Sequence record: NC_079180.1
DNA from: Escherichia phage SKA49
DNA: 51,548 nt
Strand: one strand, 5' to 3'
Shown here: positions 1 through 51,548 of the stretch, piece after piece
Layout: the number at the start of each line of letters is the position of its first letter
How positions within the stretch are numbered: position 1 is the first letter of the stretch
Notes under the pieces: generated by a model
Seen by the model: the letters and a program-made list of their open reading frames with translations, nothing else
Told to the model about the DNA's origin: nothing
Databases searched by the model: none
Translations under genes and position numbers: made by a program

Positions 1-170
1 GCTCACTTCGCCCGCTTTATATTATAATTTTATTTTGGGCCAGCGGGGAGGGGAAGTTGTGACATTATTATTTTAAAATTTTTTATCTCCGAGGAGGGGA
101 AGCCCAACGTCCTATCGGACTTAAAATACGGTCCCTACCCCAACTTTTTCCTACAGCCTATCGGCTTTCA
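1..170. repeat. left-end non-coding repeat region
   Basis: G-rich motif GGGGAGGGGAAG at about 45-56 and GAGGAGGGGAAG at 91-102; 12-bp palindromes GTCCTATCGGAC (109-120) and AGCCTATCGGCT (155-166); AT-rich runs; no ORF. Confidence 0.35.
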
Positions 171-250
171 AACAACACCAAGTTAGGCGCTTCGCTTATA
201 AGTCAAGGTCAAAGGCAATCAGAGTACGCTGTTGTAATGTGCTAGTCTCA

Positions 251-270
251 CCATTAGTTGGTTGTGATTA
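251..270 (+). promoter_or_regulatory. variant of the phage promoter-like motif (CCATTAGTTGGTTGTGATT) upstream of the RNAP gene
   Basis: Matches the core CATTAGTTGG-TGTGA shared by seven other intergenic copies; lies 60 nt upstream of the RNAP start. Confidence 0.4.
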
Positions 271-330
271 TGAATAGGCTACGCAAGTCTAATCCGTTTC
301 AGTTAAATCATAATCAATTGGAGACTTATC

Positions 331-2445
331 ATGACTAACGAAGAATACCGTGCACTGGCTGCTGATGGCGCTCGCTTGAAAGAAGAAGGCCAAGGTTGGA
401 AAGACGTGCTCGATACGATGGACCGTTGCAACCAGATGGTAGATGAAATCACCTCCGTTACACAAACCGAAACTAAAACCGAAACTAAATTGGAGACTCG
501 CAAAATGACAACTATCTCAACTCAAACTATCAAATCCGTTGTCCCTGCTATCACTGCTCTGGTATATCGTGCCAAAGAGAAACAGAACTACATGCAGCCT
601 CAGACCTGTGCTATTGCTGCTCTTGCAATCTTTAAGATGATGACCTCATTCACTCGTGATGACGTTGTTCCTGCCATTGCGATGGTTGAGCTGGCTTCTG
701 CTTCTATTGCTGATGCCAACCGCTACAACAACGACTTGAAAGCAATGCACTATGTTGACCCAGCTATCAACCTCATTGGTCTGGCTAAGCACTTCGGCTT
801 CATTACCATGAACGAAGACAAGTCATTCCAACAGACTGACACATGGGTTGAACTGGTTACAACCAAAGACACAGCAGTGCCATTCACTGAGCGTGTTACA
901 TCTGAATCTCGTCGCAAGCCTTTCGTTAAAGGTGGCAAAGTTAAGCCATCCAAAACTTTGAAAGCTGCAATCGAATTCCTGCAAGATACTGAGTACCATG
1001 TGGAGACTGAGATGGTTCGCATCATCCAGTCCATGATTGAACAGCGTACTTATGGTGGCTTGCAGATGCCAGAAGCAATCCAGACTGAACTCCATGTTTG
1101 GAACAATGCTGTAGCAATGATGAATCAGGACACACTGTATTCTGACTACTTTGCTGACAACCGTGGTCGCCTGTATCATGTAGCATGTGCTGGTCCTAAC
1201 CCACAATCCTCTGACTTTGCTCGTTGCTTGTATTCTCACAATGTTGAGAACATCGTTAAGAAGTTTAACGAAGATGGTTCTACTACCATTGCATACAACA
1301 TGTTCATGGCAGAGCTGGAAGATATTTCCGGTGGTGAATGGTGCAGTGCTAAACGTCTGACCTATGTTGCTCAGAATCCAGCTGGTTCACTTGCTCGCAT
1401 GATGAACATGCCTAAAGCTGAACGTCCTTCTAAGCCATTCACTTATGTTCGTCTGGCTCTGGATTGGTTCAAGTTTGAGACTACAGGTGAATGCGATTCT
1501 CGTGTAGGCTTTGGCTTAGATGCTAAATGTTCTGGTACTCAATATCTGGCATTCATTGCTGGTAACATGGAAATGGCTCGTGCAACAGGTCTGGTTGATT
1601 CTGAGACTAAAGCATCTGACCCATACCAGTTGAGTCTTCGTGAACTGTTGAAGCTGCTGGACAAGTCTTCAATGAAACCTTCTGTTGAAATCATGGATGA
1701 ATTCTTGAACCCTAAAGCTGGTCGTAAGTTTATCAAAACTCCGTACATGGCTATTCAATATGGTGGTGGTAAAGCTGCATTAACTGGTTCATCTGACTTC
1801 ATTAGCTACATGACAGAAGCGCTCCAGATTCCTATGGAGAAAGCTGAGGCATTTGCTGAACTGTGTGTAGAAGCAATCCATAACGCATTGGGTGCTAAGA
1901 TTAACATGTTCATCGAGAAAGCTGCTGATGCTGCATACAACCGTTGTGTTGAACTCAACAAAGAGTACATCACATATCGTCACACTGATGGTCAGGTTGT
2001 AATGAAGCCTTGCTTCCCATCTCGTGAAATCTGTGAGGCATTCAGCATTCGTGTTGACTCACAAACTCGTGTTATCTTTGGCCAGATTCAGGAGAATAAG
2101 CCTTGGACCATTCGTGAATCCAATCCAACTAAAGAAGAATTCAAGCGTACTTTCGTTGTTAACTACATTCAAGGTATTGACGCATTGGTTGCTCGTACTG
2201 TTGCAGTTAAGGCTAAAGAAGCTGGTCTTCGTGGCTTCACTTCAATCCATGATTGTTTCCGTTGCTGTCTGGCAGATGCTCCACGTATGATGGAAGTTAT
2301 TCGTGCAGCATATGTTGAAATCTTTGTAACCAACAATCAATTCGAGAATCTGTCTAAGCAACTCGGTGGCATTCAGATGTATCATGAGAACATCGTAACC
2401 GAAGAGCTTCTGATGAGCGAACACGCTTACTACTTCTGTCAATAA
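331..2445 (+). CDS. T7-type single-subunit DNA-dependent RNA polymerase (compact, 704 aa)
   Basis: Motif A-like FGLDAKCSGTQYLA, motif B-like GRKFIKTPYMAIQYGGG, motif C TSIHDCF with catalytic Asp; GGAG RBS before ATG. Confidence 0.85.
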   Translation: MTNEEYRALAADGARLKEEGQGWKDVLDTMDRCNQMVDEITSVTQTETKTETKLETRKMTTISTQTIKSVVPAITALVYRAKEKQNYMQPQTCAIAALAIFKMMTSFTRDDVVPAIAMVELASASIADANRYNNDLKAMHYVDPAINLIGLAKHFGFITMNEDKSFQQTDTWVELVTTKDTAVPFTERVTSESRRKPFVKGGKVKPSKTLKAAIEFLQDTEYHVETEMVRIIQSMIEQRTYGGLQMPEAIQTELHVWNNAVAMMNQDTLYSDYFADNRGRLYHVACAGPNPQSSDFARCLYSHNVENIVKKFNEDGSTTIAYNMFMAELEDISGGEWCSAKRLTYVAQNPAGSLARMMNMPKAERPSKPFTYVRLALDWFKFETTGECDSRVGFGLDAKCSGTQYLAFIAGNMEMARATGLVDSETKASDPYQLSLRELLKLLDKSSMKPSVEIMDEFLNPKAGRKFIKTPYMAIQYGGGKAALTGSSDFISYMTEALQIPMEKAEAFAELCVEAIHNALGAKINMFIEKAADAAYNRCVELNKEYITYRHTDGQVVMKPCFPSREICEAFSIRVDSQTRVIFGQIQENKPWTIRESNPTKEEFKRTFVVNYIQGIDALVARTVAVKAKEAGLRGFTSIHDCFRCCLADAPRMMEVIRAAYVEIFVTNNQFENLSKQLGGIQMYHENIVTEELLMSEHAYYFCQ

Positions 2446-2453
2446 GAGAAACA

Positions 2454-2497
2454 GGGCTGTCATCGAAAGGTGATGGCCCTTTCTTTATTCTTTATTA
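2454..2497 (+). terminator. intrinsic terminator after RNAP gene
   Basis: Hairpin GGGCTGTCAT-CGAAAG-GTGATGGCCC (with G-T pairs) followed by TTTCTTTATTCTTTATT. Confidence 0.55.
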
Positions 2498-2525
2498 ATT
2501 AAATCCTTTAATTCCCAATATTCAA

Positions 2526-3300
2526 GCAATATTGCTGCATGTAATATTGTTTCAATATTCGACATTAGTTGGATGTGAAGTAACAGAATACGGAGAAGTA
2601 TTCCGCATGTCATGTTGAATCATTCTAGAAACATTCAGCATGTCAGCTTTGAGTTACAGCGTTGTAATGATGTGGCAATCATTGAACTCCCTGGGAAGGC
2701 CACCTACAGTTCCAGCAACCATGACTTAGAGTAGGAATATCTATCCGAAACTTGGACTTCATTGTAGTTTGGTGTGCTTCATCGTGAGAAAGGTAGCGAC
2801 AACTTTCATAAGCAAATAGCATGACTCATTCCAGACAAACTTGGAACAGCTCATGTAGTACCAGCATGTTCAATTGCGACAATATTGCTCCATCTCCTAT
2901 TATAAAGGCCCACCCACAAGCCGGGAGATAACTTTGGTAATATTGGAACTTTTGGACATGCTTCTTTCTTTCAATCAGAATTCGAAAGAAGAGAAGAGTC
3001 GGAGCAAAGCCTCTCGTTTACACGCAGAAGCCGCCCCGATTTTGAGCAACAAATATTGTGACAATATTGTCGCAGTATGGCATGTAAATATTGCTACAAA
3101 TTGGCATGTTAGAATGTGGCAGAATTGTTAGAGGACTAATCACCTCGAAGATACAATCGTCTGCCAATCTGGCATGTTAATTTTGTAACAGTATTTGTGC
3201 CAATTTCGCATGTAGTATTTAACCCAATATTCTTGCAACCCGCATGAATACTGGCTTTCAGCCAAGCGAAGGCTTTATCATCGCATGTAATATTGTGACA
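2526..3300. repeat. cluster of AT-rich palindromic motifs (CAATATTG, GACAATATTGTC) and GCATGTAATATTG-like repeats
   Basis: CAATATTG or near copies at about 2527, 2545, 2877, 3049, 3058, 3087, 3294, 3302; (G/C)GCATGT(A/T)A-TATT at about 2536, 3080, 3102, 3169, 3205, 3282. Confidence 0.5.
2562..2580 (+). promoter_or_regulatory. phage promoter-like motif ACATTAGTTGGATGTGAAG
   Basis: Conserved about 19-bp motif in an intergenic position, one of eight copies. Confidence 0.55.
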
Positions 3301-3508
3301 ATATTGGGATAAAACCCTTTATTTAAATCATTTAGTTTATTAATTAAATGGTCGGTTTTCTGTACATAGGTATTCAGCTGTTTGTGCCAAATACAAACAA
3401 GTTGGCTGCTTCTACAGAACTCCAGTGCTACAAATGTTCGTGCCAATCTGCTGCAATTTATCTCATTTGGCGGGGTAATATTGTATTAGGTTGGTACGTC
3501 ATTATTTC

Positions 3509-3529
3509 GATTAGTTGCATGTGAATAAG
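3509..3529 (+). promoter_or_regulatory. degenerate promoter-like motif GATTAGTTGCATGTGAATAAG
   Basis: Partial match to the ACATTAGTTGGATGTGAAG consensus, upstream of the early gene cluster. Confidence 0.3.
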
Positions 3530-3717
3530 ACCAAATCTCTGTAAATTCTGTGACAGATTTTAGAGAGATTATGTCTCCAAGCTAATCATTGTAGTTTTTA
3601 GACACTTTGTGTGTCACATATATAGCCTGTGAAAAACGTGTGGTATATTGCTGGATTGCGACGCGCCCACCAGACTAGGAAGTCACTGACGGCGGCACAC
3701 ACAGGAATACTATATAA

Positions 3718-3780
3718 CTCCCTACAACTTTAAGGTGGATTGAGGTAAGACAAGACCTCCACAATCGTTCTGTAGGGAGT
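3718..3780 (+). promoter_or_regulatory. 9-bp inverted repeat (CTCCCTACA ... TGTAGGGAG) with nested GTGGA/TCCAC stem, upstream of first early gene
   Basis: Perfect reverse-complement arms 3718-3726 and 3772-3780 separated by 45 nt; candidate RNA structure or processing site. Confidence 0.35.
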
Positions 3781-3804
3781 TTTCCTTTAACTTTGGAGAA
3801 TAAA

Positions 3805-4053
3805 ATGGATACTGTGATTAAAGCTGCTTGTTTCAAAGACCTGCAAGATGGTCAAATCTTCACTGTTCGTTCTGTGAAGTGGATTAAAGTAAATGAGTCA
3901 GATAAGTACAATGCTGTAAAGTTCTTTGATTCAAGCAAAGCATGTACTTTTAGCGACAATATTGTTGTCAATATTGAAGTCGAATTAATTCCTGATGACG
4001 GAGATGTTGAAGCAACTCTTCGTAACACTGCTGGATATAACGAGGGATTCTAA
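3805..4053 (+). CDS. hypothetical early protein (82 aa)
   Basis: ATG with GGAG RBS 6 nt upstream; track ORF begins at TTG 3793. Confidence 0.6.
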   Translation: MDTVIKAACFKDLQDGQIFTVRSVKWIKVNESDKYNAVKFFDSSKACTFSDNIVVNIEVELIPDDGDVEATLRNTAGYNEGF

Positions 4054-4296
4054 ATGAATTATGCTTTATATCAATACATCAATCGCGATGGTGTTGTTTC
4101 TCATGCTTTGGTTAATACTGAAACCAGAGCAATAATGTTGGCAGACTTAATATCTTATACATCACTTTACGAAAACAAGCTGGTGTGGAATAATGCCGCA
4201 TATCCTGAATATGTTTGGCAAGCAATCCAGAATGACAAACATCACAAAGTTGTGGCAACTGCCACACATCCAGATTTCTTGAAAGTAAGAGGTTAA
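4054..4296 (+). CDS. hypothetical early protein (80 aa)
   Basis: ATG abuts upstream stop (TAAATG); track ORF. Confidence 0.55.
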   Translation: MNYALYQYINRDGVVSHALVNTETRAIMLADLISYTSLYENKLVWNNAAYPEYVWQAIQNDKHHKVVATATHPDFLKVRG

Positions 4297-4298
4297 CA

Positions 4299-4487
4299 AT
4301 GGACTTCATCGTCTACTTTAAGTTAAATGGTGTGGAGCAAAGATTGTACTTCAATTCTTTACTTCGTTTGCAACAGTGGGCGGAGAAGTTTATTGGTTAC
4401 GACTTTGAATACATCAACGCATGTACACCTGACGAACATGAGGAAATCGTGTTCAGTTCATTAAACCAGATTCTGGAGGCCAAATGA
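4299..4487 (+). CDS. hypothetical early protein (62 aa)
   Basis: AAGAGG RBS before ATG; track ORF. Confidence 0.55.
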   Translation: MDFIVYFKLNGVEQRLYFNSLLRLQQWAEKFIGYDFEYINACTPDEHEEIVFSSLNQILEAK

Positions 4488-4648
4488 AGTTGTCCCACTT
4501 CAAATCTTTTAAATCCTGTGTTTACGCTGCTGCCTATGGCAGTTCAAACAAACGTTTGAAGAAAATGGCTAAAGAAGCAAATCCACGTATGCCTGCTCGT
4601 GAAGTGGCAAGACGTGTTAAATCAATTTACGAATATCTGGAGTATTAA
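4484..4648 (+). CDS. hypothetical small basic protein (54 aa)
   Basis: ATG overlaps upstream stop (ATGA); GGAGG RBS; below the 60-aa track cutoff, found by reading. Confidence 0.4.
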   Translation: MKLSHFKSFKSCVYAAAYGSSNKRLKKMAKEANPRMPAREVARRVKSIYEYLEY

Positions 4649-4831
4649 GTGAGCTATGAGAATCTGCTACTAAGAACTGGTGGTGGGATGCTCATACTGA
4701 CCACACCTGAGTTCCATTTCACGAAGGTTTACTCCGAAGAATTTAAATCCTGGTTCCCAGCAAGTCTAAAAACACGATGGCTTAAAGATTGTGTACTTGT
4801 TGGGAAGAATGTGAAGTTAAGGAACAAATAA
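4649..4831 (+). CDS. hypothetical protein (60 aa, GTG start)
   Basis: GGAG 7 nt before GTG; track ORF. Confidence 0.35.
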   Translation: MSYENLLLRTGGGMLILTTPEFHFTKVYSEEFKSWFPASLKTRWLKDCVLVGKNVKLRNK

Positions 4832-5004
4832 TGAACGACCAGCAATTCAACACATTCATGCAGCAGATTAATCATCAAGAATTGATGGACACTCTCAAAG
4901 GCAAGAAGCCAGTCGAACGTAAATATAGTAAAATTGATAATTATATGCCAACAATCATTGCATGTGTTGGTGTTGCTATTGTTCTCTACTTCCTGGTGAA
5001 ATAA
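4831..5004 (+). CDS. small protein with hydrophobic C-terminal segment (57 aa)
   Basis: AAGGA RBS before ATG 4831; C-terminus TIIACVGVAIVLYFLV looks transmembrane. Confidence 0.45.
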   Translation: MNDQQFNTFMQQINHQELMDTLKGKKPVERKYSKIDNYMPTIIACVGVAIVLYFLVK

Positions 5005-12898: not shown

Positions 12899-13795
12899 GT
12901 TGCCGATGGCAAACTTGAGAGACTAAGCTAAATCGATCTGGCATGCACTGGAAGTTTCCGGTGCTGCCTTGAACCCATTCCAGAGTGAGTGGGCTTCAAT
13001 TTGTACATAATTCAAACACCAGTGCATGAGCCTTCGACGGAAGGCAATGTTGGGAAATTTGTTGTGTACAAATTGAAGTAGTTTTCTGAGTCTTACGACG
13101 GGCCTAAACTGCCTGGAGTTATTGCGACTGTTTTATTCATTTAAAATAAATGCAAATGATTCTGAAATGCGAGTTGCGGCTTAATTAAATTTAAGTCCTC
13201 TCCGTGGTCTTCCAATCCCACGTAACCAAATTTGGCGCATTGTGGCTTCGAGATGTGATTAATAAATCGGAGCAATAATTAATTTGTATTCTGCGATGCA
13301 AAGCAGGCTTAAGTCCTCCAGTGCGCGTGGGGATGTGACAGAGTACAAACTTAATTATGCAGTTGGATATTTCTAGAGGACGGACGAGCACACTGGAATG
13401 TCTTCAATTGGTTTAGTGTGAGAAGCTATGCCAATTTGAAACGTAACTCCTTGGGGAAGTGCTCCTCTGGATTTCCCTCCACGCAGGAATCTCAAGCCTG
13501 TGGCAGTGACTTCGAAGCTGCACTGCGTAACCTAATTCACCCTAAAGTGAATTGCCCTGAGCATGGAAATAAACTGCTCAAACCGATGGTATCTACAAAG
13601 GTAGATTAAATCAGGTTGCCTGTTGGTACTTGGGTTCAACACCTGCTTGCACTCGCAAAGTAGTGCCTCGTACCTGAGATGAAGTGAGTCGGGACCATCA
13701 ATCCCACGTTATGTCAAAACACAGTAGGCGACTCACGGATTCTACAAGCCTCGCAGTTCGGGAAAACCTGCGTTATCAAAACCCCCCACCTATTT

Positions 13796-13887
13796 GGACG
13801 AGTAGCTCAGAAGGTTTGCATTGTGCTCAGTCAGGTAGAGCAATCTGTTCGACAGATGTGTCGTTGGTTCGAATCCAACCTCGTCCA
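13796..13887 (+). tRNA. tRNA-like element (possible tRNA gene or pseudogene; isotype undetermined)
   Basis: Perfect 7-bp acceptor stem GGACGAG/CTCGTCC, canonical T-arm GTTGG-TTCGAAT-CCAAC, discriminator A; core about 19 nt longer than standard, with duplicated GCTCAG flanking a 20-nt insert. Confidence 0.4.
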
Positions 13888-13917
13888 CCCATTTTCAACA
13901 ATAAACATGGAGTCCTC

Positions 13918-14058
13918 ATGGACATTGATGCACTAGACAATTTGGACTTCGGTGCTGCCGAAGAAGCAATTGAAGAACTCAAGAAAAAGCAGGACGAAGA
14001 AGCAATCGTTCCTGGTGCTGGCGATAATGACTGCTCAAGCGGTGCGTGTGCCATCTAA
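13918..14058 (+). CDS. possible small acidic protein (46 aa)
   Basis: ATG with GGAG RBS 7 nt upstream; C-terminal part of track ORF 13684..14058, whose 5' part overlaps the tRNA-like element. Confidence 0.3.
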   Translation: MDIDALDNLDFGAAEEAIEELKKKQDEEAIVPGAGDNDCSSGACAI

Positions 14059-14066
14059 GGTGATTT

Positions 14067-14303
14067 ATGCAACAGCTTAAATCAGTAATTCTTGGCGTCC
14101 TGACTGCATTTGGTATTATCATTGCAGTGTTCCTCAAAGGCAAAAGCTCAGGCAAAGCCGAGGAGCGTCAGGAAGCCAAAGAGAAGCAATTCGATTCCAT
14201 TAAAGAATCTATCGAGATTAAAACGCATGTTCAGAAAGAAGTGTCTAGCAGTTCTGATAGCAATGTCGATAGTGAGTTGCTCTCAAAGTGGGTTCGTAAG
14301 TGA
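14067..14303 (+). CDS. small membrane protein (N-terminal TM helix, charged C-terminus; 78 aa)
   Basis: AAGGTGA RBS; TM segment SVILGVLTAFGIIIAVFL. Confidence 0.45.
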   Translation: MQQLKSVILGVLTAFGIIIAVFLKGKSSGKAEERQEAKEKQFDSIKESIEIKTHVQKEVSSSSDSNVDSELLSKWVRK

Positions 14304-14436
14304 TTATTGCTTAATTGCACAACCAATCTATTTGGATGTTGCAGAAGTGAAAATCTTATCACGCGAAACCAAAACACAGATTCTAGTCCACAATGAAACG
14401 TGGGCACAAAAGTGTTCTCAACTTACCCGACAGTGA
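14227..14436 (+). CDS. possible lipoprotein (69 aa) overlapping the 3' end of 14067..14303 in another frame
   Basis: Signal-like MFRKKCLAVLIAMSIVSC with lipobox-like IVSC; weak RBS. Confidence 0.25.
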   Translation: MFRKKCLAVLIAMSIVSCSQSGFVSDYCLIAQPIYLDVAEVKILSRETKTQILVHNETWAQKCSQLTRQ

Positions 14437-15499
14437 GTGAACAAGATGAGCCTGTTGCATCTATAAATAAGTACAGTGAAACAAATGCTCGCCATCGCAT
14501 TTCATTTGGCAGTCCGGTACGGGACTTTAAACACACGTATATCATAGTCGAGGGAGTGCGCGACTTTAAATAACGAGACTCTAGCTACTTGTAGCATAGT
14601 AGGTGTAATTCCTGGTGCTCTGGGCATAACACATGATAAATTGCTGCCTCCTAGGATTGGAACGTCCCGCTACACATCGTTAGTGTGAGAAGGTTAGTCC
14701 ACCGAGACAAAGGCTTGCGGCTTGACTCCGGCCAAAGAAGAAAACGGCGTGCTTGAGAACGAAGCTCCGATGACTCCGTAAAGTCAACGTAATGAACGCG
14801 AAAAGTTCAGGTGGTCACTTCCTAAAACAGTGTCCGAGAGCATCCTCGCCAAAGTGCTTGAGAACGTTAGCTCTGTCTTGCCAGCATTAATGGCACGTTG
14901 GCCGCGTAAAGGCCACAGCGTCTGACCAACGTATCGGTCACCAAATTCAATGGATTCGTAGAGTTAATTAAACCTGCACGATGGGATAGGGATATAGCAT
15001 CCGAGGCCGACTGTGTAATTGCTGGCTTACTATAAACCAGCCGAATCCGCCAAATCAATGGGCTAGTGCAAATGTCAGTCACTAGAAGATGTGTTGCAAA
15101 ACGTCTTCCATGATGTGCAAAGTGTCAGTCACGTGCCCGCCAATTTCCTCCAACAGTTATGCCTCTGTTCAAAAGGCTCAAGAGAGCGTCTGGCATACCG
15201 TAGCGATACGGCTTAGTTGCGCTGATTGTGTTGTGCAGAAAGAAAGTTCAGGCTTTCGTTTGGGTTACTCCTCATCCCGAAGTTAGCTGGATTCAAAATC
15301 CAGACTATGTTCCTATACACATGAAATATGCAAGTCGAGGGTTCTTAATGTTCAAACATGATGCGAGCATTAAGCGGGTTTATACTTTTCCCCGATGGTC
15401 CCCATAAACAAGGCTGATTCACTTGGGCGGTTCGAATCAAATTTAATAAGTGTTTTGTAATACTCAGGGCACTTACTTAAATTTTAACTGGAGAGAAAC

Positions 15500-15730
15500 A
15501 TGAAAACTGCTGAAATTGCCGAAGAGATTTATAAGGCCGTAATAGCCAACCAAATCACAAGTGAAGTCCTGCACATGGATATTGAAGAAGTTCGCAATGC
15601 CTTTGGTGGTTTTGCAATCTTGTCAATAGAAGCTGCGGAAGCACTGACAAACACGTACAATCAACGCGAATATGAAAAGCGTTCTGTACTAAATGCGTCG
15701 ATGAAAGAAATTCAGGCGTCATTAAAATAA
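15500..15730 (+). CDS. hypothetical protein (76 aa)
   Basis: GGAGAG RBS; track ORF. Confidence 0.55.
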   Translation: MKTAEIAEEIYKAVIANQITSEVLHMDIEEVRNAFGGFAILSIEAAEALTNTYNQREYEKRSVLNASMKEIQASLK

Positions 15731-25345: not shown

Positions 25346-25675
25346 ATGAAACTGTCCTCACCTGTTGTAGTAAATAGCCGCAAAGTTAGATTTGCATATC
25401 TCAAGTCCAATGTCACCTCCACTGGTGGCGGGACTTATCTCACCCGTGCACTTGCAGTTCGCAACGAAACAGGTGCGGATGTTATCGTTTTCATGCTCCC
25501 TCATGGTGAAAACACAATCAAGAACGTCGAACGTATCAAGCGTGGGCGCGAAGATTTAATGTCGGCTGTTAAGCCGCTGATACTGCCATTTAAGATTGTG
25601 GTGGTTGTTGGTTCTACCCAAACATATCTGGAAGATTTCTATAAAGATATGGCCTGGAGCGATATTAAATATTAA
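25346..25675 (+). CDS. hypothetical protein (109 aa)
   Basis: Track ORF upstream of packaging module. Confidence 0.5.
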   Translation: MKLSSPVVVNSRKVRFAYLKSNVTSTGGGTYLTRALAVRNETGADVIVFMLPHGENTIKNVERIKRGREDLMSAVKPLILPFKIVVVVGSTQTYLEDFYKDMAWSDIKY

Positions 25676-25730: not shown

Positions 25731-25916
25731 ATGCGCACAATACAATGTCCTAACTGCCATTATGAAATTGCAGAAGATGATTTCATAACGCAGCAATGTC
25801 CTATCTGTGATTCATACATGCCACTAAACCGCCTGTATTTAAAGGCCGATTCTGGTTTAGGCAGCATCATTCGCATCAATCCCGTGCAAACTCAGCCATT
25901 AGTGGATTGTGATTAA
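25731..25916 (+). CDS. small zinc-ribbon protein (CPNCH...CPICD)
   Basis: Two CxxC pairs; GGAG RBS. Confidence 0.5.
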   Translation: MRTIQCPNCHYEIAEDDFITQQCPICDSYMPLNRLYLKADSGLGSIIRINPVQTQPLVDCD

Positions 25917-25936: not shown

Positions 25937-27955
25937 ATGTCAAAGACTGATGACCTCGGACCGGAGTTTAATGATACAGTAGCCTCGTATCTTGCCAAGC
26001 ACTACGGTGACGTATTAAAAGTCTCAAGAGAAAGATTCTGTATTCTATCTTTGCCATTGCTCCGTCGATATATTTCAGAAAATACTGCAATAGTTGACAG
26101 CTATGAAGAACAAATTCAAGCAGAGTTAGAAGGCCAGGGTCTTGAAAACGATGCTGTATTGCGTTCCGTTTTCAGAGCACAACTTGAGCGTCTTCGCTCT
26201 GGCGACAAGAAAGACTCGACTGCCTATGCAGATGAGTTGAAGAAAGGTATTCAAGCAGGTGTTACTGACCGTGTTGCAGGTTCCACATTAGAGGAGCCAA
26301 ACTCGGAGCATGATAACACCGATGAACTTGTAGACAAGATTCTGCATGACCCACACAATGTGGACCCAACTGTAATCCCTGCCAAGGTTGCAGAACGTGT
26401 TCGCAAAATCTTGATGAAAAGTTTCGAAGCCTTTGGTAAATGGCAGTTCCATATTCAGATGGGATTTCCATTTCAAGCACAAGACTTTCACGATGTAATA
26501 TTCAGTGTTGGTCAGAAGGTTGTTGATGGTGAAATTGACCGCTTAATAGTGACAATTCCTCCACGACACTCTAAGACTCAGCTTATGAGTATTGCATTGC
26601 CCTTGTATTCATTTTGCCACAATGAATCAAGCCATAACATTATCACCTCGTATGCAGAAGACGTTGTTCTTGAATCGAGTGGTTACATTCGTGCTGTAAT
26701 GATGGACCCACTGTTCCAACGCATATTCCCGAAGGTGAGAATCGACCCTAACAAACGTTCTCTTGAACGCTGGGGTACAACCAAAGCTGGAGTTATGCAC
26801 GCAGTACCTACTGGTGGTAAGCTAACTGGTAAAGGTGCTGGACTTCTTGTTGCAAAATACTCCGGTTGTTTCGTGGTGGATGACGTTATCAAGCCGAAAG
26901 ATGCCTACTCTGACACAGTTCGAGCAGAAATCAACGACCGATTTGATAACACCTTTATGTCACGTCTTGCCAACGATGGTTGCATAACTGATTCGTACGG
27001 AAACCAAATTAAGTGTGCCCGTACACCAATGGTTATCATCATGCAGCGAGTCCATGACCAGGATTTAGTTGGTTATATACTCCGTGGTGGCTCTTCTGAT
27101 AAATATCATTACCTCAATATCCCAGCGATTATTGAGAAAGGTGTCGGAAGTGCTGAATGGTATGATAAGTTAATCAAGAAGCAGAACTACACTCATGCTA
27201 TACCCATTCTGTATAATTTGAACAGGAAGGAAGAGAAGTCTGCATTATGGCCTTCACGTAAGAGTTTAGAATCTCTGGAGGCAATGAAAGAGTCTAACCC
27301 ATACACATACAATTCACAGTATGCTGGCGACCCATCTGCACAAGGCCATGGCCTTATCAAAGAAGATTGGTGGCAAGAGTATGAGCCAGACGTTTTCGAC
27401 AGAAGTCGCATAGTCAGAAGTTTTATTACAGCGGATACGGCATCAACTGCCAAATCCTATTCTGATTATTCGGTCCTTAAGCATTGGGGCGTGACTAAAG
27501 AGCGTGACGTTTATTGTTTAGATATTATGCTCGGTAAGTTTGAAACTCCAGAACTCAAGACTGCTATCATCGACTTCTGGAACAAATGCAACAAGTTGGA
27601 CTTGAAATGCGTAGGTTGTATTCCTCGTGCATTGTACATGGAAGACAAGTCTGCCGGACAATTCTTGAACCAACAATTTATCAGAGATGGGAGTGTCCGA
27701 GTTTTACCATTGCCTCGTGATGGCATTAATGGTAATGACAAGGTAACTCGATTCCTTAACGCAATCCCATATTTCTCGCAAAAGAGAATATTCTTCCCTG
27801 CTGGTCATGAACACATCGACCACGTTAGACGTGAAATACTTGGATTCACTTCTTTGGGTAGTGGTACTGGACACGACGATTGTGTCGATAACGTTTCAGA
27901 TATGGTTGCAATCGAATTCTCAGGCCCAAGTGCCAACTACTCCGCATGGATGTAA
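25937..27955 (+). CDS. terminase large subunit
   Basis: Walker A-like PRHSKT, Walker B VVDD, nuclease Asp blocks ITADTAS and GHDDCVDN. Confidence 0.85.
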   Translation: MSKTDDLGPEFNDTVASYLAKHYGDVLKVSRERFCILSLPLLRRYISENTAIVDSYEEQIQAELEGQGLENDAVLRSVFRAQLERLRSGDKKDSTAYADELKKGIQAGVTDRVAGSTLEEPNSEHDNTDELVDKILHDPHNVDPTVIPAKVAERVRKILMKSFEAFGKWQFHIQMGFPFQAQDFHDVIFSVGQKVVDGEIDRLIVTIPPRHSKTQLMSIALPLYSFCHNESSHNIITSYAEDVVLESSGYIRAVMMDPLFQRIFPKVRIDPNKRSLERWGTTKAGVMHAVPTGGKLTGKGAGLLVAKYSGCFVVDDVIKPKDAYSDTVRAEINDRFDNTFMSRLANDGCITDSYGNQIKCARTPMVIIMQRVHDQDLVGYILRGGSSDKYHYLNIPAIIEKGVGSAEWYDKLIKKQNYTHAIPILYNLNRKEEKSALWPSRKSLESLEAMKESNPYTYNSQYAGDPSAQGHGLIKEDWWQEYEPDVFDRSRIVRSFITADTASTAKSYSDYSVLKHWGVTKERDVYCLDIMLGKFETPELKTAIIDFWNKCNKLDLKCVGCIPRALYMEDKSAGQFLNQQFIRDGSVRVLPLPRDGINGNDKVTRFLNAIPYFSQKRIFFPAGHEHIDHVRREILGFTSLGSGTGHDDCVDNVSDMVAIEFSGPSANYSAWM

Positions 27956-27957
27956 AT

Positions 27958-28170
27958 ATGGCGGTTATCACTCGTTTAGATGCCCGCTCACGCAAGAACA
28001 ACTCCTTCCAGATTCAGGATTTGGAAGGAAACATTTTATGTGTGATTGAGGCAGTTTCTACCACAGAGAGCGACTGTGTTAAGTTAAAGCACGAGTCAAA
28101 TCTGCGACTCCACACCTCCGACAACATCCAAATTGTTAAGGGTAATGGAACTATTCTGAGGAAGAAATAA
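27958..28170 (+). CDS. hypothetical protein (70 aa)
   Basis: ATG directly after terminase stop; in frame with track ORF 27946..28170. Confidence 0.45.
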   Translation: MAVITRLDARSRKNNSFQIQDLEGNILCVIEAVSTTESDCVKLKHESNLRLHTSDNIQIVKGNGTILRKK

Positions 28171-51470: not shown

Positions 51471-51548
51471 AATAAGTAAGTTAAATATTACTTATTCCCA
51501 ATATTGCTACAATATTAAGAGTAATATTAGGAATGCGTAAAGTTCAAA
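51471..51548. repeat. right-end non-coding region with 9-bp AT-rich hairpin and three AATATT(G/A) motifs
   Basis: AATAAGTAA-GTTAAATA-TTACTTATT hairpin; CCAATATTGCTACAATATTAAGAGTAATATTAGG echoes the 2.5-3.3 kb cluster. Confidence 0.35.

What the first reader, a model, noticed from the sequence alone, without database searches (positions are those of the whole stretch)
2498..3530. Dense array of CAATATTG palindromes and GCATGTAATATTG-like repeats after the RNAP gene, echoed at the right end
At least eight copies of the self-complementary CAATATTG (including the perfect 12-bp palindrome GACAATATTGTC near 3058) and six copies of (G/C)GCATGT(A/T)A-TATT cluster in a 1.3-kb region with no credible gene. 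Three more AATATT motifs occur in the last 60 nt of the window. Palindromes of this kind are typical binding sites for a dimeric regulator, or could belong to the host-promoter early control region or a terminal/packaging element.
Basis: seen in the sequence. Interest (0 to 1): 0.6.

Follow-up and report, generated by a model that had tools for sequence, protein, structure and literature searches.

The report
Protein-binding repeat array at phage terminal-repeat border
The repeats are real and conserved across a whole phage family; they sit where the roughly 2.9-kb terminal repeat of the genome ends, and most likely form a docking platform for proteins that mark that border during genome processing and packaging, though no binding protein is known.

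Summary
The window is a phiEcoM-GJ1-like phage (Chaseviridae, Carltongylesvirus). The motif enrichment is real. In 2498-3530 there are 13 AATATT against 0.9 expected and 10 GCATGT against 0.6, 0/1000 local shuffles for each.

- The CAATATTG "palindromes" are halves of a 17-bp inverted repeat, AATATTGT-N-ACAATATT, perfect at 3052 and 3289.
- GCATGT is a separate box found almost only on the + strand. In about half of the copies it lies immediately 5' of such a palindrome.
- Each copy is conserved in position in phages of seven host genera.
- Distant Chaseviridae carry different oriented boxes (GTATGA, GTGTGA) in the same non-coding region.

By homology to six relatives with mapped or duplicated ends, the direct terminal repeat (DTR) ends at about 2996-3005, in the middle of the array.
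- TCGGAC-like hexamers mark both DTR borders (TCGGAC left, TCGGAGC right).
- The nearest outer palindrome lies 59/60 bp from the left and right border.
- The cluster at the end of the window belongs to the left outer flank.

The closest analogue is T7's oriented CCTAAAG arrays around its terminal repeat.

Best reading (about 0.4): a nucleoprotein platform that marks the concatemer junction. Rivals are an operator array, a replication origin and a structured leader RNA. No binding protein was identified.

The parts
53..69 (.). Palindrome-like site GAAGTTGTGACATTATT in the outer flank of the left DTR border. Its centre is 59 bp from the end of TCGGAC.
115..120 (+). TCGGAC hexamer at the inferred left DTR border (left end at about 116-121).
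   Evidence: Homology to the ends of 4HA13, Mangalitsa, Y2, PM1 and JL1
249..269 (+). Copy of the phiEcoM-GJ1-type promoter motif (ATTAGTTGGTTGTGA) upstream of the RNAP gene.
   Evidence: ATTAGTTG occurs 9 times on + and 0 on -
331..2445 (+). Single-subunit RNA polymerase gene, the only conserved gene inside the DTR.
   Evidence: Pfam RNA_pol, E = 1e-19; annotations of relatives
2453..2490 (+). Intrinsic-terminator-like hairpin plus T-run after the RNAP gene.
   Evidence: annotated as a terminator in SA91KD
2517..2559 (+). Two palindrome-like sites (AATATTCAAGCAATATT, 3 mismatches; AATATTGTTTCAATATT, 1 mismatch) with a GCATGT box at 2537 between them. They abut P1.
2560..2580 (+). P1, a putative phage-RNAP promoter of the Jamalludeen type (CGACATTAGTTGGATGTGAAG).
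   Evidence: Annotation in EF460875 and OL960574
2586..2643 (+). 5' hairpin GAATACGGAGAAGTATTC (z = -3.7) followed by two GCATGTCA boxes at 2605 and 2638.
2684..2712 (+). Conserved hairpin GAACT-ccc-TGGG...CCTA-c-AGTTC with compensatory changes across genera. The G.U pair in this phage fits RNA of the + strand.
2864..2926 (+). GCATGT box plus half-palindrome (TCAATTGCGACAATATT), overlapping a weak sigma-70-like site (TTGCGA-18-TATTAT). Then the near-invariant block CCTATTATAAAGGCCCACCCACAAGCCGGGA.
2961..2996 (+). Hairpin CTTCTTTCTTTC...GAAAGAAGAGAAG just inside the DTR right end.
   Evidence: z only -1.1; present in the E. coli/Yersinia phages and Y2
2999..3005 (+). TCGGAGC, counterpart of TCGGAC, at the inferred right DTR border (right end at about 2996-3005).
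3030..3050 (+). GCCGCCCCGATTTTGAGCAAC box, an inverted counterpart of the G-rich box in the left outer flank (37-56 and 87-105).
3052..3127 (+). Phased sub-array. It starts with the perfect palindrome AATATTGTGACAATATT (3052-3068, centre 60 bp from the border). Weaker sites follow every 11-13 bp, interleaved with GGCATGT boxes at 3080 and 3104.
3172..3247 (+). GGCATGT plus AATTTTGTAACAGTATT (2 mismatches), then boxes at 3208 and 3242 (GCATGA).
3259..3305 (+). Small hairpin whose stem differs but still pairs in other genera. Then the best composite site, GCATGT|AATATTGTGACAATATT.
3309..3394 (+). AT-rich tract (3309-3349), then the conserved blocks GGTCGGTTTTCTGTAC and TGTGCCAAATAC.
3508..3529 (+). 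P2, the second putative phage promoter (ATTAGTTGCATGTGAA). It contains a GCATGT box at 3517.
51484..51528 (.). Right-end echo after the nrdB terminator: four AATATT, including AATATTGCTACAATATT (1 mismatch). It lies in the outer flank, about 0.4 kb upstream of the left DTR border on the circular map.

Best explanation
The region is the conserved non-coding junction region of a phiEcoM-GJ1-like phage (Chaseviridae). It lies at the right border of a direct terminal repeat (DTR) of about 2.9 kb that carries only the phage RNA polymerase gene.

It holds two kinds of DNA element.
1. 17-bp inverted repeats, AATATTGT-N-ACAATATT. These are the sort of site a sequence-specific protein dimer binds.
2. 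GCATGT boxes found almost only on the + strand. About half of them sit immediately 5' of such a palindrome.

Proposed mechanism (inferred, not shown): a phage-encoded dimeric protein, not yet identified, coats the palindromes on the outer flanks of both DTR borders. The small terminase subunit is one possibility. This marks the concatemer junction, so the packaging nuclease cuts at the TCGGAC-like hexamers about 60 bp away and the repeat is duplicated onto both genome ends. Rightward transcription from phage promoter P1 runs through the oriented boxes and may be coupled to this step, as pausing of T7 RNA polymerase at the T7 concatemer junction is reported to be (recalled, not checked here).

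Shown here: the motifs, their composite geometry, their conservation and their position relative to the homology-inferred DTR ends. Inferred: protein binding and the role in end formation.
For: - **The motifs are real.** Enrichment exceeds every local shuffle. All copies of the 17-bp palindrome with 2 or fewer mismatches lie in the region or in the right-end cluster.
- **The composite is real.** 6 of 13 GCATG[TA] boxes have a palindrome-like site (5 or fewer mismatches) starting 6-7 nt after the box start, against 0.35% of random genome positions.
- **The motifs are conserved.** Across six genus representatives the boxes show 85% identity and the palindrome cores 78%, against 60% for the rest of the region. 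Each copy is conserved in position in 13 phages.
- **The DTR right end falls inside the array.** This holds at the same homologous spot in Y2, PM1, 4HA13, Mangalitsa, Myduc and JL1.
- **TCGGAC lies at both borders** in JL1 and in several relatives. The window has TCGGAC on the left and TCGGAGC on the right.
- **The geometry is mirrored.** Distance from the nearest outer palindrome centre to the border, left/right: window 59/60, JL1 58/59, Mangalitsa 60/60, 4HA13 61/58 bp.
- **The outer flanks are imperfect inverted repeats of each other.** PM1 scores 58 against 21.5 +/- 2.8 and Mangalitsa 39 against 22.8 +/- 3.1 for 330-nt flanks. For 90-95-nt flanks Mangalitsa and 4HA13 exceed all 300 shuffles.
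- **A distant genus has the same layout with another motif.** In Shantouvirus ZPAH14 all 5 genomic copies of GTATGAGAC straddle the end of its 3373-bp repeat.
- **T7 shows the same architecture.** CCTAAAG occurs 11 times, on the + strand only. Three copies are inside the 160-bp repeat and eight just outside, with two more before the right repeat. ATCTGTT, the class II signal, lies at 161-167.
Against: - No binding protein was identified. Pfam or PHROGs searches of 29 small early or terminase-adjacent ORFs found no helix-turn-helix or small-terminase match.
- The DTR ends of this particular phage were not measured. They are inferred by homology, and several of the reference ends are PhageTerm predictions or duplications in deposited records.
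- One experimental report places the ends elsewhere. For PYps23T (2339-bp repeat) both ends fall inside the ATTAGTTGGA promoter motif.
- Many sites lie far from the borders: 2517-2559 and 51484-51528 are about 0.45 kb away, and the array runs to 3305.
- GCATGT boxes occur only downstream of the RNAP gene, so they are not explained by a symmetric border function.
- The palindrome-to-border spacing on the right differs in PM1 (70 bp) and Y2 (46 bp).
- Flank symmetry is not significant in Y2 or ZPAH14, and is weak in the window itself (18/300 shuffles).
- As far as I recall, the function of the T7 arrays themselves has never been established.
Confidence: 0.4

Rival explanations
1. Operator array for a transcriptional switch. 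A phage-encoded dimeric repressor or activator binds the 17-bp palindromes. It controls the phage promoters P1 and P2 and nearby host-type promoters, for example by shutting off early transcription. In this reading GCATGT is an initiation-region element placed directly upstream of each operator.
For: - The sites are 17-bp inverted repeats of classical operator size.
- Site 2543-2559 abuts P1.
- A half-site lies in the spacer of the sigma-70-like element at 2874-2903.
- The sigma-70 promoter predicted in phiEcoM-GJ1 upstream of the DTR has AGAATTGTGGCGATATT in its spacer.
- The box-then-palindrome order resembles a promoter followed by an operator.
- GCATGT equals the 3' part of P2.
Against: - No repressor-like gene was found.
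- The densest sites (3052-3305) overlap no recognisable promoter.
- Sigma-70-like sites are not enriched.
- GCATGT is not part of the genome-wide ATTAGTTG promoter consensus, and outside this region it occurs only at chance level.
- This reading does not explain the mirrored 59/60-bp geometry at the DTR borders.
Confidence: 0.25
2. Origin of DNA replication. The layout would combine features of the T7 primary origin and of lambda ori: phage promoters and an iteron-like array of palindromes, followed by an AT-rich unwinding tract, placed directly after the RNA polymerase gene. A second origin-like module would lie near the other side of the DTR.
For: - The synteny matches T7, whose primary origin follows gene 1 and consists of two phage promoters and an AT-rich stretch (my knowledge of T7, not tested here).
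- P1 and P2 frame the region.
- There are 4-8 palindromic sites in 3052-3305, followed by an AT-rich tract at 3309-3349. The tract is conserved in character across genera.
- The replication genes are T7-like: helicase/primase and DNA polymerase.
- The left outer flank of relatives also has long AT tracts next to tandem palindrome units.
Against: - No initiator protein was identified.
- T7-type origins need no iterons.
- The cumulative GC skew shows no informative turning point here.
- This reading does not explain why the DTR border and the TCGGAC hexamers sit in a mirrored arrangement with the palindromes.
Confidence: 0.2
3. Structured non-coding leader RNA. Transcripts from P1 fold into conserved hairpins, and the repeated GCAUGU acts at RNA level. 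In RNA the hexamer is self-complementary, with G.U pairs at its ends. It could serve as a protein-binding or RNA-pairing motif.
For: - Hairpin 2684-2712 has 3 of 4 inner pairs with compensatory changes, and 98.8% of cells are paired. No shuffle reached that percentage or the covariation score. The count of pairs changed on both sides was reached by 23 of 500 shuffles.
- A G.U pair in this phage fits the + strand RNA.
- Further small hairpins keep pairing with different sequences in other genera.
- The strand bias of GCATGT (10 against 1) fits a transcribed-strand signal.
Against: - No Rfam family matches, even at permissive E-values.
- The palindromes are conserved as sequence rather than by covariation, and their weaker copies lose self-complementarity.
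- They would form only weak all-A-U stems.
- The covarying hairpins cover a small part of the 1.3 kb.
- The palindromes also occur upstream of the DTR without GCATGT.
Confidence: 0.1
4. Cluster of host sigma-70 early promoters. The AATATT/TAATAT hexamers would be -10 elements, with TGT giving extended -10 sites and TTGTGACA acting as a -35-like element.
For: TGTAATATT and TGTTAGAAT resemble extended -10 elements (read from the sequence). One promoter-like site is found at 2874-2903.
Against: - There is no excess of promoter-like sites (15 against 12.7 +/- 3.6).
- -35/-10 spacings do not fit around the boxes.
- The -10-like readings are not conserved in relatives: TGGAAT or AAGAAT stand at the same column.
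- The reading leaves the conserved GCA of GCATGT unexplained.
Confidence: 0.04

Closest known systems
Phage T7 short-repeat arrays (CCTAAAG) flanking the 160-bp terminal repeat, with the class II pause signal ATCTGTT at the concatemer junction
   Same: - An oriented short motif on one strand only.
- Copies both inside and just outside the right end of the terminal repeat, with further copies just before the left border on the concatemer map.
- A phage-RNAP promoter follows the array (phiOL in T7, P2 here).
- The phage encodes a single-subunit RNAP.
   Different: - There is no sequence similarity (CCTAAAG against GCATGT).
- T7 has no 17-bp palindromes.
- The T7 repeat is 160 bp and carries no gene. 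Here it is about 2.9 kb and carries the RNAP gene.
- As far as I know, the function of the T7 arrays is itself unproven.
Terminase small-subunit binding arrays next to the cut site (lambda cosB R sites; SPP1 pacL/pacR)
   Same: Several short protein-binding sites lie tens of bp from the cut. Sites are present on both sides of the processed segment. AT-rich, possibly bent DNA lies between the sites and the cut (the comparison with lambda and SPP1 is from my own knowledge).
   Different: - No small terminase gene is recognisable here.
- There are two cut sites 2.9 kb apart instead of one.
- Binding has not been tested.
Lambda-type origin (four palindromic O-protein iterons plus an AT-rich region) and the T7 primary origin after gene 1
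   Same: An array of palindromic sites is followed by an AT-rich tract. The position is directly after the RNAP gene, and phage promoters flank the region.
   Different: - No initiator gene was found.
- The array is not inside a gene.
- Oriented GCATGT boxes are an extra element.
- The region is tied to the DTR border.
Phage T5 non-coding repeat/palindrome region near the right end of its 10-kb terminal repeat (the 'injection stop' region)
   Same: A long non-coding stretch rich in direct and inverted repeats lies near the right end of a long terminal repeat that carries the first-expressed genes (from my own knowledge, not tested here).
   Different: The phage family and motifs are different. 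Two-step DNA entry is not known for Chaseviridae.

Membership tests
Terminal-repeat-flanking oriented repeat arrays (T7 type) | Short motif repeated many times on one strand only | tested here: met
   GCATGT occurs 10 times on + and once on - in the region. In T7, CCTAAAG occurs 11 times on + and never on -.
Terminal-repeat-flanking oriented repeat arrays (T7 type) | Array straddles the right end of the direct terminal repeat | tested here: met
   Four boxes lie before and seven after the inferred end at 2996-3005. The end is inferred by homology, not measured for this phage.
Terminal-repeat-flanking oriented repeat arrays (T7 type) | Sequence homology to the T7 repeats | tested here: not met
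   The motifs are different.
Terminase (TerS) recognition arrays (cosB / pacL-pacR type) | Repeated binding sites within about 50-200 bp of the cut site | tested here: met
   The nearest palindrome centre lies 58-61 bp from the TCGGAC border on both sides in four phages.
Terminase (TerS) recognition arrays (cosB / pacL-pacR type) | Identified small terminase that binds the sites | tested here: inconclusive
   The ORFs next to TerL (25346-25675, 25731-25916, 27946-28170) match only PHROGs families of unknown function. Binding cannot be tested with these tools.
Repressor-operator system | Inverted-repeat sites of 14-20 bp in several copies | tested here: met
   AATATTGTNACAATATT: two perfect copies, two with 1 mismatch and one with 2.
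Repressor-operator system | Operators overlap the promoters they control | tested here: inconclusive
   Site 2543-2559 abuts P1 and a half-site lies in the spacer of 2874-2903. The densest sites (3052-3305) overlap no recognisable promoter.
Repressor-operator system | Cognate DNA-binding regulator encoded nearby | tested here: not met
   No helix-turn-helix or other DNA-binding family was found in 20 early ORFs.
Iteron-type / T7-type replication origin | Array of at least 4 initiator sites next to an AT-rich tract | tested here: met
   Sites lie in 3052-3305 and the AT-rich tract at 3309-3349.
Iteron-type / T7-type replication origin | Initiator gene, or demonstrated initiation | not testable with these tools
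   No initiator was recognised. Mapping by marker frequency or 2D gels is needed.
Host sigma-70 promoter cluster | Excess of -35/-10 pairs with 16-18 bp spacing | tested here: not met
   15 found against 12.7 +/- 3.6 expected in 1-5000.
NrdR boxes | 16-bp palindrome acaCwAtATaTwGtgt in tandem pairs about 31-32 bp apart, upstream of nrd genes (consensus recalled from memory) | tested here: not met
   The core here (ACAATATTGT) is 2 bp shorter. Spacings are 11-24 bp. The sites lie downstream of nrdB and of the RNAP gene.
T7 RNAP class II pause/termination signals | Orientation-dependent 7-nt sequence ATCTGTT in the non-template strand near the concatemer junction | tested here: inconclusive
   Orientation and location are analogous but the sequence differs. 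Pausing by this RNAP cannot be tested with these tools.
Known RNA families (Rfam 15) | Match at or near a family's gathering score | tested here: not met
   Only three chance-level hits to eukaryotic families, far below gathering scores.

The most novel reading that the evidence does not exclude
The oriented boxes form a family-wide signal read by the phage's own single-subunit RNA polymerase. The boxes are GCATGT in Cleopatravirinae, GTATGA in pAh6-C, VPs20 and ZPAH14, and GTGTGA in Spp001.

In this reading they are sequence-specific pause or termination sites, or initiation-region mimics. A protein dimer bound to the adjacent palindrome, at a fixed offset of 14-15 bp from the box start, would act as a roadblock. 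Stalled polymerase would then recruit the packaging or replication machinery to the border of the terminal repeat.

This would generalise the poorly understood coupling between T7 RNAP pausing at the concatemer junction and DNA maturation. It would also give a sequence-defined, testable system.
Probability: 0.12. Interest if true: 0.8.

Novelty: new variant of a known kind. Interest (0 to 1): 0.55.

Why it matters
- How phages with long direct terminal repeats recognise and duplicate the repeat borders is largely unknown. Even the T7 repeat arrays next to its terminal repeat have, to my knowledge, no proven function.
- This region offers a compact set of defined elements: a border hexamer, a palindrome about 60 bp outside each border, and oriented boxes with a fixed offset. 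They are conserved across the subfamily Cleopatravirinae (13 phages, seven host genera). Distant genera have lineage-specific counterparts of the oriented boxes.
- That makes border recognition, and its possible link to transcription by the phage RNA polymerase, directly testable by mutagenesis and footprinting.
- There is a practical use. It locates the physical genome ends for records of this family that were deposited as circular or arbitrarily opened.
- It also flags that the 1.3-kb 'gene-free' stretch should not be filled with hypothetical ORFs.

Tried and rejected
- **Rfam.** A scan of 2300-3900 at permissive E-values gave only chance hits.
- **Sigma-70 promoter and terminator scan.** No promoter excess.
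- **Protein-coding potential.** ORFs in the region are short, are not shared, and are broken by indels in relatives.
- **Search for the binding protein.** Pfam on 20 early ORFs and PHROGs on 10 ORFs, including those next to the large terminase, gave nothing informative.
- **'AP2 domain' gene after the equivalent region of Vibrio phage VPs20.** It looks like an HNH endonuclease fragment and has no homologue in the window or the other loci searched.
- **GCATGT as the general phage promoter.** Rejected. The 10 copies outside the region are what chance predicts. The genome-wide oriented motif is ATTAGTTG (9 against 0; TTAGTTG 16 against 2).
- **NrdR boxes.** Rejected on half-site spacing, pair spacing and position.
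- **Tus/Ter-like sites.** The resemblance (ATGT...TGTAAC) needs a 4-5 nt insertion, so I rejected it. This rests on a consensus recalled from memory.
- **The palindromes as RNA hairpins.** Rejected. The sequence is conserved rather than covarying.
- **The composite site inside the first gene (3940-3976).** It is conserved only where the protein sequence is also conserved, so it is uninformative.
Rejected.
- **Literature.** Searches for the motifs and for Chaseviridae transcription or termini studies found no description of these elements. The original phiEcoM-GJ1 and Y2 papers are not in the library.
Full report
**Identity of the window.**
- The stretch 2400-3850 matches 77 phage records. All of those listed or examined belong to the phiEcoM-GJ1 group (Chaseviridae), at up to about 90-97% identity.
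- The ORF at 331-2445 is a single-subunit RNA polymerase (Pfam RNA_pol, E = 1e-19). A terminator-like hairpin follows it at 2453-2480, extending to 2490 with its T-run.
- The first conserved gene after that starts at 3805, so 2446-3804 is non-coding.
- The ORFs in that stretch are short, are not shared between relatives, and are broken by indels that are not multiples of three.
- An equivalent non-coding stretch of 1.0-1.3 kb follows the RNAP gene in every family member examined, including genera whose RNAP is only about 34% identical.

**Check of the observation.**
- Dinucleotide-preserving shuffles of 2498-3530 never reach the observed counts: AATATT 13 against 0.90, GCATGT 10 against 0.59, CAATATTG 4 against 0.06 (0/1000 each).
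- Compared with the rest of the window, the excess is 35- to 45-fold for GCATGT and AATATTG.
The composite pattern as written matches only twice.
- GACAATATTGTC is at 3060, as stated.
- Four AATATT lie in the last 70 nt.

**Anatomy.**
- The AATATT hexamers pair up at a spacing of 11 bp. The unit is a 17-bp inverted repeat, AATATTGT-N-ACAATATT.
- Copies by mismatch count:

| Start | Mismatches |
|---|---|
| 3052 | 0 |
| 3289 | 0 |
| 2543 | 1 |
| 51500 | 1 |
| 3179 | 2 |

- No copy with 2 or fewer mismatches lies anywhere else in 51.5 kb.
- GCATGT is a second, separate element. In 6 of 13 GCATG[TA] boxes a palindrome-like site begins 6-7 nt after the box start. This holds for 0.35% of random genome positions and 2.9% of other positions in the region. 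The remaining boxes are of the type GCATGTCA and stand alone.
- The region is framed by two copies of the motif annotated in phiEcoM-GJ1 and SA91KD as 'putative phage promoter' (ATTAGTTG[G/C]ATGTGAA): P1 at 2560-2580 and P2 at 3508-3529.
- That motif is genome-wide and oriented. ATTAGTTG occurs 9 times on + and 0 on -; TTAGTTG 16 against 2.
- GCATGT outside the region occurs only at the chance level (10 copies). The boxes are therefore not the general promoter.
- The ICTV profile states that the promoters of this family have not been identified experimentally (PMC12842549).

**Conservation.**
- I aligned 13 phages from Escherichia, Yersinia, Erwinia, Pantoea, Pectobacterium, Aeromonas and Proteus hosts. 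Each box and each palindrome has its own conserved position, so this is not a fluid repeat array.
- Conservation across six genus representatives:

| Element | Identity | Invariant columns |
|---|---|---|
| GCATGT boxes | 85% | 54% |
| Palindrome cores | 78% | 39% |
| Rest of the region | 60% | 19% |

- Only 1 of 2000 random hexamer sets reached the conservation of the boxes.
- Distant Chaseviridae have other oriented boxes in the same place. GTATGA occurs 7 times on + and 0 on - in VPs20, pAh6-C and ZPAH14. GTGTGA occurs 8 against 0 in Spp001.
- In ZPAH14 the 9-mer GTATGAGAC occurs five times in 54 kb, all within 3132-3444.

**Relation to the terminal repeat.**
- Chaseviridae genomes have long direct terminal repeats.
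- The borders can be read from records that carry both copies: Y2 2608 bp, PM1 2665 bp, JL1 2995 bp, ZPAH14 3373 bp.
- They can also be read from PhageTerm annotations: 4HA13 3120 bp, Mangalitsa 3234 bp, Myduc 3202 bp.
- All six Cleopatravirinae place the left end at the sequence homologous to window 116-121 (CCTATCGGAC|TTAAAATACGG). They place the right end at the sequence homologous to 2996-3005, just after the hairpin at 2961-2996.
- In JL1 the hexamer TCGGAC is present at both borders. The window has TCGGAC at 115-120 and TCGGAGC at 2999-3005.
- The inferred DTR is therefore about 2885 bp and contains only the RNAP gene.
- The array straddles its right end. Four boxes and three palindrome-like sites lie inside it, and the dense part (3052-3305) lies outside.
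- The window ends about 250 bp short of its own start on the circular map of relatives. The missing piece in Bp10 and Mangalitsa holds three to four tandem units of about 30 bp, each with a palindrome-like site.
It is not a second copy of the terminal repeat.
- One report disagrees. For PYps23T a 2339-bp repeat was derived by ligation-PCR (PMC8762354), and both of its ends fall inside ATTAGTTGGA. Because the junction lies in a sequence shared by the two sites, PCR template switching is a possible cause. That is my inference only.

**Mirror geometry.**
- The centre of the nearest outer palindrome core (TTGTGnCAA) lies at nearly equal distances from the left and right border hexamers:

| Phage | Left (bp) | Right (bp) |
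|---|---|---|
| Window | 59 | 60 |
| JL1 | 58 | 59 |
| Mangalitsa | 60 | 60 |
| 4HA13 | 61 | 58 |
| PM1 | 58 | 70 |
| Y2 | not found by the scan | 46 |

- The two outer flanks are imperfect inverted repeats of each other. The module reads palindrome, AT-rich stretch, G-rich box, then border.
- For 90-95-nt flanks, Mangalitsa scores 36 against 15.9 +/- 2.9 and 4HA13 scores 28, each exceeding all 300 shuffles. PM1 scores 24 (3/300).
- For 330-nt flanks, PM1 scores 58 against 21.5 +/- 2.8.
- The signal is weak in the window itself (18/300) and absent in Y2 and ZPAH14.
- TCGGAC alone is not specific: it occurs 8 times on the + strand. Only the combination with a palindrome about 60 bp away marks the two borders.

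**Transcribed structure.**
- The hairpin at 2684-2712 keeps pairing through TGTC/GACA, TGAG/CTCA, TCAG/CTGA and TGGG/CCTA. Three of four inner pairs show changes on both sides, and 98.8% of cells are paired. No shuffle reached that percentage or the covariation score. The count of pairs changed on both sides was reached by 23 of 500 shuffles.
- The G.U pair in this phage fits RNA of the + strand.
- A 5' hairpin follows P1 (z = -3.7).
- Small hairpins near 3259-3282 keep pairing with different sequences in other genera.
- At least part of the region is therefore read as RNA.
- The palindromes themselves are conserved as sequence, not by covariation.

**Comparison with known systems.**
- T7 was read with the same tools. 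Its 160-bp repeat is straddled by 11 CCTAAAG copies, all on the + strand: three inside and eight just outside. Two more lie just before the right repeat.
- The class II pause/termination signal ATCTGTT lies at 161-167 and is followed by promoter phiOL. The signal is described in 10.1101/2021.01.11.426313.
- That is the same architecture with unrelated sequences.
- Lambda cosB and SPP1 pacL/pacR (terminase-binding arrays beside the cut), lambda ori and the T7 primary origin (sites plus an AT-rich tract after gene 1), and the T5 repeat-rich region near the end of its long terminal repeat are further analogues. These comparisons rest on my own knowledge.
- No paper in the searchable library describes the Chaseviridae motifs.

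**Verdict.**
- The best-supported reading (about 0.4) is a nucleoprotein platform that marks the borders of the terminal repeat for concatemer processing. Dimer-binding palindromes bracket the repeat. Oriented boxes may tie the process to rightward transcription.
- An operator array (0.25), a replication origin (0.2) and a structured leader RNA (0.1) are not excluded, and these functions could overlap.
- The main gaps are three. The binding protein is unknown. The ends of this phage are inferred, not measured. The role of the GCATGT boxes is unexplained.

Noticed in passing
window 249-269, 2560-2580, 3508-3529, 6998, 12469 and others: The motif ATTAGTTG occurs 9 times on the + strand and never on the - strand (TTAGTTG 16 against 2). 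In SA91KD, copies of the corresponding promoter motif are annotated after predicted terminators. This supports the unverified phiEcoM-GJ1 'phage promoter', which the ICTV profile treats as still unidentified.
   Followed up: partly
L007/L008 (Yersinia phage PYps23T, MW147598): The published 2339-bp terminal repeat has both borders inside ATTAGTTGGA. It disagrees with six other family members. A template switch between the two shared motifs during ligation-PCR is a possible cause (my inference).
   Followed up: partly
window about 12900-15500: A stretch of about 2.5 kb has only implausible ORFs. It contains a tRNA-Leu(CAG) at 13795-13891. SA91KD likewise has almost no annotated genes in the matching part of its genome.
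   Followed up: no
window 3620-3717 and 3718-3779: An insertion of about 100 bp is shared with SA91KD and BSBP01, present in diverged form in PYps23T, and absent from GJ1, Bp10 and Mangalitsa. A long two-tier hairpin follows (-22.9 kcal/mol, z = -2.5) just upstream of the first early gene. It could be an RNA processing site or a stabilising structure.
   Followed up: partly
window 3940-3976 (inside gene 3805-4053): A further composite site, GCATGT...GACAATATTGTTGTCAATATTG, lies in coding sequence. It is conserved only in relatives with the same protein sequence, so it is uninformative.
   Followed up: yes
window 37-105: The left outer flank of this phage carries the G-rich box twice (37-56 and 87-105), with a palindrome-like site and an AT tract between the copies. 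Mangalitsa and JL1 have one copy.
   Followed up: no
window end 51548 / start 1: Compared with circular maps of Bp10 and Mangalitsa, about 250 bp are missing between the end and the start of the window. In the relatives that piece holds long AT tracts and three to four tandem 30-bp units (CAATATT...GAGACTC).
   Followed up: partly
L020-L025 (ZPAH14, VPs20, Spp001, pAh6-C): Distant Chaseviridae have their own oriented boxes in the post-RNAP non-coding region (GTATGA or GTGTGA, 7-8 on + and 0 on -). VPs20 ends the region with a run of ATAATTAT palindromes.
   Followed up: partly
search hit PP952070.1: A record named 'Staphylococcus phage Pel53' encodes an RNAP 92.8% identical to this E. coli phage group. 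The host label is probably wrong, or the record is contaminated.
   Followed up: no
L026 (T7 1-340): All 11 CCTAAAG copies at the left end of T7 are on one strand and straddle the end of the 160-bp repeat. ATCTGTT lies exactly at 161-167.
   Followed up: yes
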